Origin: Escherichia coli
GTDB taxonomy: Bacteria > Pseudomonadota > Gammaproteobacteria > Enterobacterales > Enterobacteriaceae
DNA length: 64,000 nucleotides
Strand: one strand, 5' to 3'
Assembly (NCBI RefSeq): GCF_011045215.1
Contig: NZ_CP049201.1
The position numbers were made by a program. This document shows, piece by piece, positions 48,001 through 54,000 of this stretch. Position 1 is the stretch's first letter, and every line of letters starts with the position of its first letter.

Positions 48001-51000
48001 ACAGACAGAGCCTTACCGTTTGTGAGCGTACAGTCTGCCAGTGCTGTCGCCGGGATCGCAGATTGCGAATCAGGTGCTGCTGGCCTGGCTTTTTCCGGTT
48101 CAGGGGGATTTTGCTCCCCGGACCCGGTATCGGTTTTCCCGGGAGAAGTGACGGTGGCATCGTAAGCCGGCGTCTGAATACGTGTATCCGGTGGATTGTT
48201 ATCGGCGTCATTAAAACGCTTTGTCGTTGATGAATAGCCTGCCTGTTCGTTGGTGTAGCCGCCTGTAGGCATCCGTGATTTCTTACGCCATTCTCCATTC
48301 ACTTTTTCATACCCGGATTCTGTCATCATCCGTTCCTGCAGACTGGTGATTTCTGTTTCAGGGGAGTGCGGTTGCCTGTCCCCGGAATACAGAAACTCGT
48401 CCAGTGTCATCTTTTTGTTCTTCCGGGTATCCGTGTGGATGAGAGATTTCGGAATAAATGTCTTACAGGCTTCGGTGAAGTTACCTTTACGGAAAGTGGC
48501 CGTTTTCCCTTCAATGGTAACGGTTGCTCCCATGAAGTGTGTGAAAGCCGGTATGGCACGGGCTGCCATATCCGGCGCTGCACGGGGGGTATCCCCCAGC
48601 GTCACCATTCTGCGAAATCCCGTGGCGCTGTTACATACCATGAGAGATTTCCAGGTCTGGTCGTTGATTCTGGTAGTGATAAAGCGGGTTCCCGGAAAAT
48701 CGAGATTATCCGGACATCCCTTGTCCATGCTCATAAAAACCATACCTTCATCAGAAATGAGGGCAGTTTCATTTCCTTCACTACTGATGGCCTGGCATGC
48801 GCCGTTTCTGATTTCCCAGTTGTCGGTAAAATAGTCGCAACCGGTAAGAACGGATATTGCCGAAGCTATCATCAGGGAATGACGTAATACCCGCATGTTC
48901 AGTTTTTTGTTCAGCATATTGTCTCCATACCTGTCGGAACGGCTTTGGCAGGCCGGCGATCACAGGTTAAAGGTGTTGATAAGTTTATGGATGAAAGGGA
49001 AATGTGGCAGAGCGGAGATAAAACGCTCTTCAGCGACCAGACTGTGGATGTGGTCTCTCCGTTCAAACCGTTCTGATGTCAGGCTGACCGATTTGATGTC
49101 TGCCAGGGGAAAGACCCGCAGTTTTTCCTTCTGTAACGCGATCAGATACCAGCTTCCGCTGTAATAAATGAGCCGGCAGGGTTCCAGTGACGGATACCAT
49201 TGCTCAGTCACCAGCGAGATGTGGATGCACTGTCTTATTGCCAGGATGAGTTGCGAGAAACACTCGGGGAGTGTTGCAGTGATATCCGGCGCCGGTAGCC
49301 AGATAAGGCAGGGAGAGGGCTCCTGGTTGTCGGTAAGACAGGTTATCAGTCGTCCGTTCCGGAGCGGAAGTATCCGTGCGATCCCCGTATTCTGTATAAA
49401 TGAAAGCATTTCAGGGAGCGCGCCCGGGTTGCTCTGCCGTCTGAGACTGTACCGGCCATTTCTGTACTCTAAGTCCAGGTGAACCAGACGCTGATGAAAA
49501 TCGCGCTGTAAGGTACGTTCTGTAACACCAAATTCATCTGACAGTGTTTTTAGTGACAGAGATTCTCCGGCCATCAGTCGGCTGATAATGAGTGATAAGC
49601 GAACCGCCAGGCGATCATGCCGGGAACGATTATCAGACATAGATGTGTACTCCGTAAGAAAACATCTTTTATTTCATGATGTTATTATGCATCATGATGT
49701 TGAAAGGATGTGTCGTATCCGAATCATCAGGAATAAAATGCAGCAGAAAAAATATTCCTTTAATTATCTGATTTTTAAGCAGGGTCTCATAAAAAGAAGA
49801 ATGCTTGTTAATCCAGCGACACATCCTGTCGGCGTGAGTGTGTCAGAACAGACGATCCCACAGTGTGACCAGCAGGTGGATAATGCGGTCCCGGGCCTTA
49901 CGCAGAAGCTGTAACATCCAGGCCGGAAAGCTGAACCGGGCAACGGTGTCGTCAAAGCTTTTCCCGATGGCGTCACCAAAAGTTTGTTGTGCGTGTTTCC
50001 GGGTCTGTTCAGAGCGGTTTTCCCTCCGGATATGTGAATAAACCGCGCTGGTTGCCTGTGGTGGCAGTGCGTGGATCATCAGCGATACCAGTGCCGGAAG
50101 ATTCCAGCCGACAGGTGCAGCAACGGAGAGTACCGGAAATGATGAAGGGAACAGGGTTGCCACCCGGGCTGTTACTGTTGCCAGTGAGAGTTCCTGCTGA
50201 CGGGACGGGCATTTTTCTGTGTCGTTCCATTCTTCAGCAGGAAACACGCGATCGGCATGGCTGAGAACAAACAGAAAACGCGAGGGATCTGCACCTTCAT
50301 TCAGTAAAAACTGATGCATGGCAATATCAGCAGCATACGCACGTTCATCACTCCGCAGGATCCAGATAATCAGATCCAGTTCCGGTAGCAGCTGACGATA
50401 AAGTGTCCGGTATTCCTGATCATGCTGCGGTGTTTCACCAATGCCGGGCAGATCGACCAGCGTCATTCTGTGTTCACCGAGCTGCAGGGTAAGACGATGA
50501 GCCTGGCGGGTGCAGCCGTTCAGAGGATGTGTGGCGCAGATACGGGACTGAAAAATGGCATTACACAGACTGCTTTTGCCTGTGCCGGATTTACCCATAA
50601 TGCCAATCACGGGCTCGTAATGAATAACACCGTGGAGATGTTCAAGGATTTTCTGGCGAATTTCTTCAGGAAGAAACGTCAGATATGATTTCACTTGTGC
50701 GGAGAGGGAAGAATGGCTGAATGACATACCGTTATCCTGTTGATTTCGCTGAACCGGATCACACTAATCCGGTTTATCATTCATGTAATATGGACGTGAA
50801 AAATGATGGAATGTCTGAATTACGGACATGATTGTTAAAGTGTAATGGAGTATGAAGTGAGTTTTTCCGAACGGGAACTAATGACATACTGCGGTTTCAG
50901 GAGATGAGAGGATGACCGGACGTAAAAACAAATGTGTCAGAAAAAATTGTAACAATCAGGTTTTCTCAGTAAAAATGGCAGTGGAGAAAAGACTGTGCAG

Positions 51001-54000
51001 AAAACATTATGAGAGGTTTTGTGAGCTCAAAAAAAGAAGAGAGCAAAATCCTGTTCACAGATTAAATGAAGCATTGCCAAGAAAGATAAAAGAACCCAAA
51101 AGTAAGAAAAAATTAGTAAAAGAAAGAGAAATCATTAACAGCAGAAAAAAACATAAACAGGAGCAGGGACCATCGCTGGCTGAACTTAATAAAAAAGTTC
51201 GTGAGATACTGAAAACTCCGGCATGGAGAACGCTGGAAACGAGAATTCGAAGAAATGGCATCACATTTAAGTCAAAAGCAGAGTTAGATGCGCTTTCTGA
51301 ACTTTATGCAATTTATTCATGGGTTTCATATTGCAAACGGGGCGATAATTATTCTGTGTGGTTTTTGAATTGTCCGGATGTAAATATAAATCTTCATGTG
51401 TGCGAATGCCGGTCTTCTGAAAGCGATTGTTATCTGCCATCCCGTTTTATTATCCTCCCAGCTCCATTAAGGCAAAAAGTAAAAAGAAAATACTCTGCTA
51501 ATTCGTCTGGGGTACCAGGACATAATGATTCAAAAAGTCTTTATAAGACAGTTTTGTCTGTTTGTGGTGGGAAAAGAGAAACCGAATTGTTCTTTTATTC
51601 ACTGCCAGTAAAGACTAATCATCATCCTTACTGGATTAAAAGTGGTGTGGTTAAAAGATTTTCTCCTGTTTTTGGTTTGTTGTTTTATGAGCAGGAAAGG
51701 TTAACAGGAGGTGTTTTTCGTTATGTGTTGATAAGGTTTTATAATACTTTTAAGGAGAATTTGTTTTTTGTTGAGATTGTCTCGTGCTGTTTTCTTGTTG
51801 AGCTTTTTCATGATATTGATTCGTTTTTTATAAATCAACGATTAAGTAAGCTTGAAAGTTTTATAGATAAGTGGAAGGAGGGTAAAGAAATCTGGATAAA
51901 AGCATATCTACAACTTATACATAATACATTGGGAATAACTGAAACAGAAAAACTCGTCAATCTATATAATTCATTTTTTACTGATAAAGTGGTTCTCTGG
52001 GATGAATCAGTAAAAAAAGTTAAGTGGATTTATGAGAAATAGTACCATTTAACTGAAAGCCACCATAACGTCTTTTTGATTACATTCATGATAATGCATC
52101 TCATTTTGTTTTCGTTTTTTTGTTCAGGGAAATTTTCCGAACATCAGTGATAATGAGGGTTTTGTTGTTTTTGTTTCTGCAATGTTTGAGGGCTGTTCCT
52201 GGAGATGATTCGTTGTTTGTGAGCAAGAGGTGGTCCGCTTTTCTGGACAAGTTTTGTATTTGTTGAGTGGTGAAATGGAAGTAAAAAGAGCCCCTTTCTG
52301 GCAATGACTGAAAAAGTCAGTAGCGTGTGACAGTAAAAACTAACATAAAGTGATTATCGTATGATTATGACAATAACTTATAACTTTTATGAAAAGAATA
52401 ACAGAAACTACGAGGCCATAGCAGATTCCTGAGATCATGTTTTCTGAGGTAGAGAAAATAATTCCAGAGTAAATCTGTTCTGTTTTTAGGACAGAAAACT
52501 CCATGTTGGCTGTAAAAGTGAAAAATCAACACCCAGTATGCATGGATGTCTGAAGATGTTGAGAATGTCGGTATGATACTATATACACATATTTTACTCA
52601 GTATTTTTACTAAGCATTTCAGTAAGTGTTATACACGTATTTTCATAAACAATTCTACAAGTGTTTTCATTAAGTATTGTTATACACATTGCTTTGTCTG
52701 ATACACATCCAGTTTAGTAAATTTGTTAGTCCTGTTTTTACGATAGCTAAAATCAGTTAACGTCACTACAAAACTCCCTGTCCTGTTTAAGCAGTCAATA
52801 TGCTATTCGATTTTACTGATGTTACATTTAACCTTTTATGAGTTTTCGTGTTTTTAGTCGTTAACCTGAGACAAGTGTTTTTATGTAAAACGCAAATCCG
52901 GCTGAGATAACCTGGCGTGATTTACTGTGTGCTTACGATGATTTTGTTAAATGGTTTTATAGATGATTTTGTAGCAATGAGATTGATGAGATGATTAACT
53001 GGCCCTGGTGTTTTTTCTCAGCGCAAGGTGATTATCTTCATCATAAGGCTCTTTTCAGGAAAAGCGTGATGATTGGTTCTGGTGTTTTGATTCAGATGAG
53101 ATTTACGTTATTGATGGTTAATCGTTTTTATGGTGTGTTGAAAAGTAACGTTTTCAGGATAAGAAAATCGATTCTGATATTGGTGGTTTTTGTTCTTGTG
53201 GCGGGGTTATCTGTAAACAGGTTTTAAGCGCGCTATTCGGCTCTGTGATTGAGTTGTGTGGTTAAGCTGTAGGTTTTGGTGTTGTTGTTGATTTACAGAG
53301 CCAGAAAGCGTTCTGATTGCGTTTTTGGTGTTTTGTTTGTACGTTCTGTGGATCCGTTTCCCTTCTGACTTTTCTCGTCGTCCATGTCGTTTTTAAATCC
53401 ATTCATGCTGTTGTTGCGTGTTTTGTTGTCGTGTGCAGGATTATCTTTTCGTTACGGGACGATTCATTCCGTTTTAATCAGGAGCTATTGGCGTTGCTCA
53501 TTGGTGGGATGCCGTAAAGTTTTACCGCGGCGATTAATGATGTGAAGTCAATCCAAATCAACGGAGATCTCTCATCATGAATCAACCAATACACAATGCT
53601 TACTGGTTATCCCGTTTTGAAAGTATTCTCAACAGTGACCTGGTGCAACACCTTGCCGTTTCGTTAATCCGGGTGGATTTACGTTTCCCTGAGTATATGC
53701 CTGCCAGCATCATGGATACCGATTTAGATTCAGCGGTGATTTCTCGTTTTTTCGAATCCCTGAAAGCCAAAATCCAGGCTTACCAGCGGAAAAAACGACG
53801 TGCCAACAAGCGTGTGCGTGCAACCACTCTGCGTTATTTCTGGTGTCGGGAGTTCGGCAAGATGTATGGCAGGAAACATTATCACGTGATATTACTGCTC
53901 AACAAAGATACCTGGTGCTCGCTCGGGGATTTCAGCGAACCATCTTCGCTGGCGACGCTGATCCAGCTGGCATGGTGCAGCGCTCTGCATCTTGAGCCCT

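What the first reader, a model, noticed from the sequence alone, without database searches (positions are those of the whole stretch)
50912..52042. AT-rich orphan gene encoding a Lys- and Cys-rich 376 aa protein
This ORF sits between the conserved GTPase gene and the Rep-like region, has a markedly lower GC content than its neighbours, carries several Cys clusters that could bind zinc, and matches nothing I recognise. Variable slots of this kind in islands often hold defence or anti-defence genes.
Basis: inference. Interest (0 to 1): 0.6.

Follow-up and report, generated by a model that had tools for sequence, protein, structure and literature searches.

The report
Hypervariable zinc-finger island protein family
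The ORF is a real gene for a zinc-finger protein from an undescribed, fast-evolving family that sits at the same spot in a common class of E. coli, Klebsiella and Salmonella genomic islands; it is therefore not an orphan, and its function (most likely recognising a phage or rival mobile element) is untested.

Summary

The gene lies in a sharply bounded 1651-bp cassette (50804-52454). In E. coli, Klebsiella and Salmonella a family member always sits between the divergent GTPase gene and the AlpA/HUH-Rep module. It appears to be driven from a conserved backbone control region. Alleles of 24-40% identity form classes shared across genera, while the flanking GTPase groups by genus (94-95% within E. 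coli). About 3% of E. coli slots hold an unrelated gene. In K-12 CP4-57 the same interval holds AbpAB and RnlAB.

Best reading (about 0.4): a nucleic-acid-tethered specificity or sensor protein at the island's regulatory hub. Main rival (about 0.3): a stand-alone defence or anti-defence effector. Function is untested.

The parts
50912..52042 (+). CDS of 376 aa (stop codon included). Member of an unnamed, Enterobacterales-restricted protein family.
   Evidence: ORF. Annotated 'hypothetical protein' WP_077521207.1. Full length in 458 of 5426 complete E. coli genomes. Its 90%-identity cluster has 3400 members. dN/dS 0.03-0.33.
50933..51010 (+). N-terminal CCCH zinc-finger-like motif, residues 8-33: C8-x4-C13-x15-C29-x2-H32-Y33, in a very basic context.
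   Evidence: C, C, A, R, L, C, H, Y are invariant in nine finger copies from five subfamilies (A6). pLDDT is 87-89, with a knuckle followed by a helix starting at residue 30. dN/dS is 0.08 for residues 1-54. Zinc binding is inferred, not shown.
51074..51175 (+). Lys/Arg-rich linker, residues 55-88, predicted disordered.
   Evidence: pLDDT is below 50 for residues 58-84. 16 K+R in residues 41-80. Length and sequence vary among homologues.
51176..52039 (+). Core domain of about 290 aa, mostly helical with a small beta element. It defines the family: W105, R114, Y135, P183, Y211, P252, R263, E288, Y352-N353-x-x-F356.
   Evidence: Alignments A3-A5. AF2 model m767269a5c391 has pLDDT 78.8 and pTM 0.69. 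The finger-less 320-aa homologue aligns only to this part (hhalign 90%, E 1.4e-6).
50804..52454 (.). Variable cassette of 1651 bp, GC 0.35: 108 bp upstream, the CDS, and a 412-bp non-coding tail.
   Evidence: Similarity to islands carrying other cassettes stops at 50803 and resumes at 52455.
50728..50803 (.). Conserved backbone control region shared with the divergent GTPase gene. It carries a dyad AACCGGAT/ATCCGGTT (50752-50759 and 50767-50774) and an invariant GTAATAT (50785-50791).
   Evidence: About 95% identical in E. coli islands with other cassettes. The CCGG-N11-12-CCGG dyad and GTAATAT are conserved in Klebsiella and Salmonella islands (A7). In UTI89-type and L008-type islands the start codon lies only 23-29 bp inside the cassette, so the promoter must lie here. 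Promoter function is inferred.
52043..52454 (+). Non-coding 3' tail of the cassette, with a terminator-like hairpin at 52233-52248.
   Evidence: No small ORF is conserved in the 87%-identical L006 allele. Terminator-like site. No excess RNA structure (z +1.3 and +1.6).
49843..50727 (-). Divergent neighbour: YfjP/YeeP-type GTPase, first gene of the leftward GTPase, WYL regulator, DUF932, antirestriction, RadC, CbeA/CbtA module.
   Evidence: Weak LeoBC match in PADLOC (1.2e-7).
52455..53576 (.). Conserved ORF-less, AT-rich, G+T-skewed region between the cassette and the Rep-like gene.
   Evidence: 87-88% identical in islands with different cassettes. Its small ORFs are broken by stops or frameshifts elsewhere. 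GC and AT skew. Short iteron-like repeats at 52590-52643.
53577..54308 (+). Co-oriented downstream neighbour: inovirus Gp2 / YagK_YfjJ (REP_ORF2-G2P) HUH Rep-like gene.

Best explanation
Shown. The ORF is a functional gene of a previously undescribed protein family restricted to Enterobacterales. The family is a positionally fixed but hypervariable component of the tRNA-integrated island class that carries an integrase, AlpA, an HUH (Gp2/YfjJ-like) Rep and a distal GTPase/ArdB/RadC/CbtA module. The protein has an N-terminal CCCH finger, a basic disordered linker and a helical domain of about 290 aa with no recognisable relative. Old allelic classes of the gene are exchanged between otherwise near-identical backbones by recombination in the conserved flanks.

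Inferred mechanism. The protein is not an enzyme. It is a nucleic-acid-tethered specificity or sensor protein at the island's regulatory hub. The conserved finger and basic linker hold it on DNA or RNA. The fast-evolving helical domain recognises a rapidly changing partner, such as a protein of a helper or attacking phage or of a rival element. That recognition alters expression of the flanking GTPase/anti-restriction operon or the AlpA-Rep (excision and replication) module. The logic resembles a SaPI Stl repressor or the P4 epsilon antirepressor, without any homology to either.
For: The gene is real and constrained: dN/dS is 0.025-0.33 overall and 0.08 in the finger.

Position is fixed across genera. 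In E. coli, two Klebsiella subfamilies and two Salmonella subfamilies, the gene lies 93-190 bp from, and divergent to, the GTPase gene. It is co-oriented with AlpA and YagK_YfjJ Rep downstream. Lelliottia keeps the AlpA/Rep side only.

One family dominates the slot in E. coli. The window type is in 458 genomes, the UTI89 type in 968, and the L008 type in 186 in full (741 with partial matches). An unrelated cassette is in 73. The left flank occurs at 2483 places.

Homology of the cassette proteins is supported: a collinear 20%-identity BLASTP alignment over the full length, hhalign 90% probability, and shared motifs.

The family tree disagrees with the backbone. Class A (E. coli window type, Klebsiella 383 aa, Salmonella 384 aa) shares 32-40% identity. 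Class B (UTI89 type, Klebsiella 421 aa, Salmonella 465 aa) shares 32-37%. A versus B is 24-30%. The adjacent GTPase instead groups by genus: 94-95% in E. coli, 89% in Salmonella, 74% in Klebsiella, 49-67% between genera. GTPase dS is also uncoupled from cassette type.

The promoter region belongs to the conserved backbone and keeps a dyad and GTAATAT across genera.

The finger is the most conserved part, and the finger copy number varies (0, 1 or 2), which suggests a modular tether. No catalytic-looking motif is conserved, and no enzyme fold was found.
Against: No experiment or binding data exist. Zinc binding and nucleic-acid binding are inferred from sequence and a model.

The L008-type subfamily lacks the finger entirely. 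About 3% of E. coli slots hold an unrelated gene on the opposite strand. The protein is therefore not indispensable to the island.

Both flanks are conserved regardless of allele class. There is no sign of an allele-specific operator, and no strong sigma-70 promoter was predicted on the + strand.

Hypervariability could come from weak constraint plus recombination rather than partner-driven selection. dN/dS stays below 1 in every segment.

The structure model rests on only 13 sequences.
Confidence: 0.4

Rival explanations
1. Stand-alone anti-phage defence (abortive-infection type) or anti-defence effector. The cassette is cargo placed under a resident backbone promoter. The variable helical domain senses or blocks a phage or host-defence component, and the protein acts on its own without regulating the island.
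For: The cassette has sharp boundaries, is AT-rich, and can be replaced by unrelated genes. In K-12 CP4-57 the interval between yfjJ and yfjP holds AbpAB and RnlAB (PMC10732053). The neighbouring operon encodes antirestriction, RadC and toxin-antitoxin functions. This island class is described as a vehicle for defence payloads (PMC12458937). Deep allelic classes held within species are typical of conflict genes.
Against: No cassette protein matches any of 5027 PADLOC models, candidate systems included. No enzymatic or pore-forming motif is conserved. True cargo hotspots hold many unrelated systems, whereas one family occupies most slots here and keeps its position across at least three genera. 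The family is absent from 50,697 phage records and from IMG/VR, where anti-defence genes are common.
Confidence: 0.3
2. An ordinary island maintenance factor, such as a DNA-binding accessory protein for the HUH Rep or origin, an architectural protein for AT-rich DNA, or a plain transcription factor. Its extreme divergence would reflect weak constraint on a helical scaffold plus recombination between old island lineages, not partner-driven selection.
For: Synteny with the AlpA/Rep module is strict, even where the GTPase is lost. The N-terminus is basic and finger-bearing. A conserved ORF-less region, possibly an origin, lies next to it. dN/dS of 0.2-0.6 outside the finger fits relaxed purifying selection. 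Its dN/dS is similar to that of the GTPase, 0.12-0.33.
Against: A factor that binds conserved island DNA or a conserved Rep would be expected to stay conserved with it. Instead alleles at 24-26% identity sit on 94-95% identical backbones. Several deep classes coexist at high frequency in one species. The slot can hold an unrelated gene. One subfamily has no finger.
Confidence: 0.2
3. A decaying or spurious ORF in H-NS-silenced AT-rich DNA, with no function.
For: GC is low. No strong promoter is predicted. All databases call it hypothetical.
Against: The chance of such an ORF is about 1e-14. Against the L001 allele there are 10 synonymous and 1 non-synonymous differences. The gene is intact in 458 complete genomes. 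Full-length homologues down to 24% identity share collinear motifs. The AF2 model is confident over most of the chain.
Confidence: 0.03

Closest known systems
SaPI/PICI master repressors (Stl), known from the literature on phage satellites
   Same: Both are encoded at the junction of the two divergent operons of an integrated, satellite-like island. Both are extremely divergent between otherwise related islands. Both combine a nucleic-acid-binding N-terminus with a variable C-terminal part, which in Stl recognises different helper-phage proteins.
   Different: There is no homology. Stl uses a helix-turn-helix, whereas this protein has a CCCH finger (no HTH found by Pfam). Stl is divergent from the operon it represses, whereas this gene is co-oriented with AlpA/Rep. 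No operator, repression or phage partner has been shown. One subfamily lacks the DNA-binding-like module.
P2 Ogr / P4 Delta zinc-finger late-gene activators (Pfam Ogr_Delta)
   Same: Both are zinc-finger proteins of Enterobacterales satellite or phage elements. P4 Delta is described as a tandem duplication of an Ogr-like unit (from memory), which parallels the two-finger member P0033.
   Different: The Ogr/Delta ligand pattern is C-x2-C-x22-C-x4-C in a protein of about 70-170 aa (from memory). Here it is C-x4-C-x15-C-x2-H followed by an unrelated domain of about 290 aa. Pfam found no Ogr_Delta match for any of 13 members.
Defence systems in the equivalent interval of E. coli K-12 CP4-57 (AbpAB = YfjL/YfjK; RnlAB)
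   Same: They lie in the same inter-module interval, between the YfjJ-type Rep gene and the YfjP-type GTPase gene of a related island. Both are AT-rich accessory content.
   Different: There is no sequence relationship. PADLOC is negative, and hhalign against K-12 YfjH and YfjM is negative. K-12 has no member of this family in CP4-57. The gene order in K-12 also differs: there yfjJ points towards yfjP.
C-x4-C...C-x2-H-Y-x-R fingers found N-terminal to HNH endonucleases of actinobacteria and their phages (recalled from memory; a lead only)
   Same: The ligand pattern and the 'C-x-x-H-Y-x-R' helix start are similar. One AlphaFold DB structural relative from Citrobacter is auto-named 'HNH endonuclease'.
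   Different: No HNH or His-Me catalytic motif is conserved, and Pfam found no HNH match in 13 members. The resemblance was not tested by a profile comparison.

Membership tests
Any Pfam-A / NCBIfam / PHROG family | Significant match to the family's profile HMM | tested here: not met
   Window protein: best Pfam i-Evalue 8.3, NCBIfam 0.16, PHROG 0.1. Thirteen family members against Pfam, and seven against NCBIfam and PHROGs: nothing at or below 0.001.
Known or candidate anti-phage defence systems (PADLOC-DB v2) | Match to a defence protein model | tested here: not met
   Zero families at E up to 1 for the window protein. Zero for the UTI89-type, L008-type and L011-type cassette proteins.
Known or candidate anti-phage defence systems (PADLOC-DB v2) | Protection against phage when expressed | not testable with these tools
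   Requires phage challenge experiments.
Ogr/Delta zinc-finger activators | C-x2-C-x22-C-x4-C motif and a match to Pfam Ogr_Delta | tested here: not met
   The motif here is C-x4-C-x15-C-x2-H. No Pfam hit.
HNH / His-Me finger endonucleases | Beta-beta-alpha-metal catalytic motif (conserved His...Asn...His) and a match to an HNH profile | tested here: not met
Stl-like satellite master repressors | HTH DNA-binding domain, binding to an operator between divergent promoters, and derepression by a helper-phage protein | tested here: inconclusive
   No HTH was detected, so membership by homology fails. The positional and evolutionary analogy holds. Operator binding and derepression cannot be tested here.
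The new family itself (GTPase-adjacent hypervariable island protein) | Core-domain motifs W105, R114, Y135, P183, Y211, P252, R263, E288, Y352-N-x-x-F356, collinear over about 290 aa | tested here: met
   Alignments A3-A5. phmmer E values of 4e-48 to 5e-26 to full-length representatives at 29-36% identity.
The new family itself (GTPase-adjacent hypervariable island protein) | Position: divergent from the YfjP-type GTPase gene and upstream of, and co-oriented with, AlpA / YagK_YfjJ Rep | tested here: met
   Window, and loci L001, L002-L006, L008-L010, L012-L015, L017-L021. Lelliottia keeps only the AlpA/Rep side.
Structural zinc finger (treble-clef type) | Four conserved ligands: a knuckle pair plus a pair at a helix N-terminus | tested here: met
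   C8 and C13 lie in a hairpin, and C29 and H32 at the start of helix 30-45, with pLDDT 87-89. All four are invariant.
Structural zinc finger (treble-clef type) | Actual zinc binding | not testable with these tools
   Needs metal analysis of purified protein.

The most novel reading that the evidence does not exclude
The family is a polymorphic specificity determinant shared across genera. Each allelic class would recognise a different helper or attacking phage (or rival element). That recognition would decide when this very common island class switches on excision, replication or its anti-restriction module. This would be a new, non-HTH, zinc-finger-tethered sensor type, giving these 'cryptic prophage-like' islands a satellite-style life cycle.
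Probability: 0.2. Interest if true: 0.8.

Novelty: categorically new. Interest (0 to 1): 0.55.

Why it matters
Islands of this class (CP4-57-, CP4-44- and CP4-6-like elements, and the distal modules of pheV/pheU/leuX pathogenicity islands) are among the commonest mobile elements in E. coli, Klebsiella and Salmonella. They carry virulence, resistance and defence cargo, yet how they are regulated and mobilised is unknown (PMC12458937).

The left flank of this slot is present in 1862 of 5426 complete E. coli genomes. Most of those slots hold a member of this unnamed family. A gene that keeps its place at the junction of the two island operons, while diverging to 24-40% identity in classes shared across genera, is a strong candidate for the element's specificity switch or for a new conflict protein.

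Either outcome would make the biology of these 'cryptic' islands testable. Either would also add a new fold and a new finger type to the catalogue. If the protein turns out to be a dispensable scaffold, the value is limited to annotation.

Tried and rejected
- Sequence libraries: Pfam, NCBIfam, PHROGs, PADLOC and PDB, with the single protein and with family profiles. Nothing found.
- Finger-only profile against the 5.8-billion-protein set: only fragments of the same family.
- Literature search for the WP accessions: no papers. Searches on YfjP/YeeP/YkfA and on the island module gave context only.
- Rfam on 49500-55500: no credible RNA family.
- RNA folding of the cassette's 412-bp tail on both strands: z of +1.3 and +1.6, so no structured RNA.
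- Small ORFs in the tail and in the 1.1-kb downstream region are not conserved as coding.
- Repeat searches found no terminal repeats or recombination sites at the cassette borders. The only shared feature is a run of A's at each border.
- The dyad in the control region has full 7-bp complementary arms only in E. coli and one Salmonella type, and 3-5 bp elsewhere. I do not claim a hairpin.
- K-12 YfjH and YfjM are not relatives.
- The unrelated L011-type cassette protein is not a relative.
- Genome-contig scan: only three loci, all of the Klebsiella type. IMG/VR: none. Phages: none. Plasmids: one record.
- The second AT-rich stretch at 57084-58650 is not similar to 52455-53576.

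
Full report
**Observation**

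An AGGAG-containing ribosome-binding stretch lies at 50899-50911. GC is 0.341 (0.286 at third positions). The window is 0.504, the GTPase gene 0.523 and the Rep-like gene 0.504. The protein has 12% Lys, 12 Cys and pI 9.7. With the local composition, a stop-free run of 376 codons has a probability of about 1e-14 per frame. The low GC is not confined to the gene. It continues through non-coding DNA to about 53500.

**It is a real gene**

NCBI annotates the same CDS as 'hypothetical protein' (WP_077521207.1). It is present at full length in 458 of 5426 complete E. coli genomes. Its 90%-identity cluster has 3400 member sequences.

- Against a 98.5%-identical allele there are 10 synonymous and 1 non-synonymous differences.
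- Against an 81%-identical allele dN/dS is 0.32.
- By segment, dN/dS is 0.08 for the N-terminal finger, 0.63 for the linker and 0.24-0.43 for the rest.

Neither is met.

**It is not an orphan**

An exhaustive phmmer pass over 1.84 billion representatives found only a handful of full-length relatives at 28-36% identity. The word-indexed search found Klebsiella, Atlantibacter and other relatives at about 30% identity. Every member is called 'hypothetical'. Source organisms include E. coli, E. albertii, Salmonella, Klebsiella species, Enterobacter, Lelliottia, Atlantibacter and Citrobacter.

The key step came from related E. coli islands. The genes occupying the same position there are remote homologues.

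- The 407-aa UTI89-type protein aligns collinearly end to end at 20% identity. It shares the N-terminal C-x4-C...RLC-x2-HY motif, the (A/E)W-x-N-(T/L)-(E/Q) motif and the C-terminal (L/I)YNS-x-F motif.
- The 320-aa protein of strain 357900 lacks the finger but matches the core (hhalign 90% probability, E 1.4e-6).
- A profile search added an Enterobacter/Klebsiella 421-aa type.
- One Salmonella member, P0033 (465 aa), carries two copies of the finger.
- Foldseek against AFDB50 extends the family structurally to Providencia, Serratia and Citrobacter. All of those are uncharacterised.

**The cassette and its occupancy**

Similarity between the window and islands carrying other cassettes stops at 50803, which is 76 bp upstream of the GTPase start codon. 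It resumes at 52455. The replaceable unit is therefore 50804-52454: 1651 bp at GC 0.35. The left flank is 94-96% identical and the right flank 87-88% identical, whatever the cassette.

In complete E. coli genomes:

| Feature | Genomes |
|---|---|
| Left flank present | 1862 (2483 places) |
| Window-type cassette | 458 |
| UTI89-type cassette | 968 |
| L008-type cassette | 186 in full, 741 with partial matches |
| Unrelated cassette (339-aa gene, opposite strand) | 73 |

One family, in very divergent forms, is the usual occupant of the slot.

**Synteny and allelic classes**

In every locus examined, the family gene lies 93-190 bp from the YfjP/YeeP-type GTPase gene and divergent to it. It is followed, in the same orientation, by AlpA and a YagK_YfjJ / REP_ORF2-G2P (HUH) gene. 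This holds for E. coli, two Klebsiella subfamilies and two Salmonella subfamilies. Lelliottia retains only the AlpA/Rep side.

A pairwise identity matrix shows that the family tree disagrees with the backbone.

- Class A (E. coli window type, Klebsiella 383 aa, Salmonella 384 aa) shares 32-40% identity.
- Class B (UTI89 type, Klebsiella 421 aa, Salmonella 465 aa) shares 32-37%.
- Class A versus class B is 24-30%.
- The adjacent GTPase groups by genus: 94-95% within E. coli, 89% within Salmonella, 74% within Klebsiella, 49-67% between genera.

Within E. coli, GTPase synonymous divergence is also uncoupled from cassette type. For example, L001 (window type) versus L008 (L008 type) gives dS of 0.024. 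Old allelic classes are therefore maintained and moved between backbones by recombination in the conserved flanks.

**Control region**

The 76 bp next to the GTPase gene are part of the backbone. Across genera they keep a CCGG-N11-12-CCGG dyad (in the window AACCGGAT/ATCCGGTT at 50752-50774) and an invariant GTAATAT (50785-50791).

In the UTI89 and L008 types the start codon is only 23-29 bp inside the cassette. The promoter for the family gene must therefore lie in this conserved stretch. The window type has about 85 extra base pairs. The simple sigma-70 scan found no strong + strand promoter, so promoter identity remains an inference.

**Protein anatomy**

AlphaFold2 with the 13-sequence family alignment gives mean pLDDT 78.8 and pTM 0.69. 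With 9 sequences the mean pLDDT was 64.6.

- Residues 8-54 are confident (pLDDT 87-89). C8 and C13 sit in a short hairpin. C29 and H32 sit at the N-terminus of helix 30-45. This is the arrangement of a treble-clef zinc site.
- In nine finger copies from five subfamilies, the invariant residues are C, C, A, R, L, C, H, Y.
- Residues 55-88 are Lys-rich and predicted disordered.
- Residues 89-376 form a mainly helical domain with a small beta element. Few residues are invariant (W105, Y135, P183, R263, E288, Y352), and there is no catalytic-looking constellation.

**No known relatives**

- Pfam, NCBIfam, PHROGs and PADLOC give nothing for this protein or for other members.
- PDB sequence searches with the protein, the family profile and the finger profile give nothing.
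- Foldseek against PDB has no hit at E up to 0.001.
- The family is absent from 50,697 phage genomes and from IMG/VR. It is present on 1 of 72,556 plasmids.

**Interpretation**

What is shown:

- A constrained gene belonging to a new family.
- A conserved finger with a modular copy number of 0, 1 or 2.
- A fixed position at the junction of the island's two operons.
- A backbone-encoded control region.
- Deep allelic classes shuffled among backbones.

What is inferred is the function.

I favour a nucleic-acid-tethered specificity or sensor protein, at about 0.4. Its variable helical domain would recognise a fast-evolving partner. That recognition would feed into expression of the flanking modules. 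The reasons are that strict synteny across genera and dominance of one family fit a backbone gene better than free cargo, and that class structure shared across genera argues for functionally distinct specificities.

The main rival, at about 0.3, is a stand-alone defence or anti-defence effector. Three points support it. K-12 CP4-57 carries AbpAB and RnlAB in the equivalent interval (PMC10732053). The slot can take unrelated genes. A recent preprint describes this island class as a carrier of defence payloads, with a distal RadC/ArdB/CbtA module (PMC12458937).

A third reading, at about 0.2, is an ordinary island maintenance or DNA-binding factor whose divergence reflects weak constraint. dN/dS is below 1 in every segment and similar to that of the GTPase.

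A non-functional ORF is effectively excluded.

Several points weigh against my preferred reading. One subfamily has no finger. There is no allele-specific operator. No strong promoter is predicted. There is no experimental data at all.

**Comparison with known systems**

In logic, the protein resembles SaPI Stl repressors or the P4 epsilon and Delta proteins: satellite proteins that interface with helper phages. It is a member of none of them. No HTH was found, the Ogr/Delta motif and profile are absent, and there is no HNH catalytic motif. The finger resembles C-x4-C...C-x2-H-Y-x-R fingers that I recall from actinobacterial and phage HNH proteins. One AFDB relative is auto-named 'HNH endonuclease'. 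That is a lead from memory, not a tested relationship.

**Novelty and score**

At the level of protein family and fold, nothing known matches, so I file it as categorically new. The caveat is that the kind of system it belongs to is undetermined.

Interest is moderate to good (0.55). The family is widespread in important pathogens. It sits at the likely control point of a poorly understood and very common island class. It also shows an unusual evolutionary signature. On the other side, there is no functional evidence, and a mundane role is not excluded.

Noticed in passing
window 52455-53576: A 1.1-kb ORF-less, AT-rich stretch just upstream of the Gp2/YagK_YfjJ Rep-like gene. The + strand is strongly G+T-skewed (AT skew -0.41, GC skew +0.28 at 53000-53499). 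It is 87-88% identical in islands carrying unrelated cassettes. Its small ORFs (78, 66 and 53 aa) are broken by stops or frameshifts elsewhere. Short iteron-like repeats lie at 52590-52643 (TTTTACTAAGCAT). It is a candidate origin, regulatory region or non-coding transcript of the island.
   Followed up: partly
window 50728-50803, and L002, L017, L018, L020 intergenic regions: The GTPase/family-gene intergenic region keeps a CCGG-N11-12-CCGG dyad and an invariant GTAATAT across E. coli, Klebsiella and Salmonella, although the downstream gene is hypervariable. The dyad arms are fully complementary (7 bp) and differ between E. coli and one Salmonella type, but they are only 3-5 bp in the others.
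   Followed up: partly
window 47017-48917 (- strand): Two ORFs lie between the DUF932/DUF905 genes and the WYL-type regulator: 179 aa with hydrophobic segments, and 433 aa with a lipoprotein-like N-terminus. Other islands (L001, L008-L012) have a 225-aa hypothetical gene there instead. This may be a second variable slot in the leftward operon. Neither protein matches PADLOC.
   Followed up: no
window 49843-50727 (- strand): The conserved YfjP/YeeP-type GTPase has a weak partial match (E 1.2e-7, residues 184-286) to LeoBC, a protein of the Eleos defence system in PADLOC. The next gene (48960-49640) matches CRISPR-associated WYL regulator models.
   Followed up: no
window about 54400-55250: Fragments of an IS110-family transposase lie between the Rep-like gene and the YfjI (DUF3987) gene at 55479-57083. 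The equivalent feature is annotated as a frameshifted IS110 transposase in strain 67-1.
   Followed up: no
window 57084-58650: A second ORF-poor, AT-rich stretch (GC 0.34) lies downstream of the YfjI gene. It is not similar to 52455-53576.
   Followed up: partly
window 40551-41498 (- strand) and left of it: The island appears to end next to the type II secretion genes (gspL/yghD side). The 315-aa ORF at 40551-41498 has the same size and position as the AbiEii/AbiGii-family toxin gene that sits at the distal edge in strain 67-1, where a DUF6088 gene follows it. No tRNA gene lies anywhere in the 64-kb window.
   Followed up: no
L008:8093-8947 (- strand) and L008:10568-11098 (- strand); L011:7237-8256 (- strand): Alternative cassettes carry further uncharacterised genes: 284 aa convergent with the finger-less family member, then 176 aa; and an unrelated 339-aa gene in the L011 type. 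None matches PADLOC.
   Followed up: partly
L020:6001-7398 (Salmonella, P0033): One family member carries two tandem copies of the C-x4-C...C-x2-H-Y finger, separated by about 25 residues. The finger therefore behaves as a duplicable module.
   Followed up: partly
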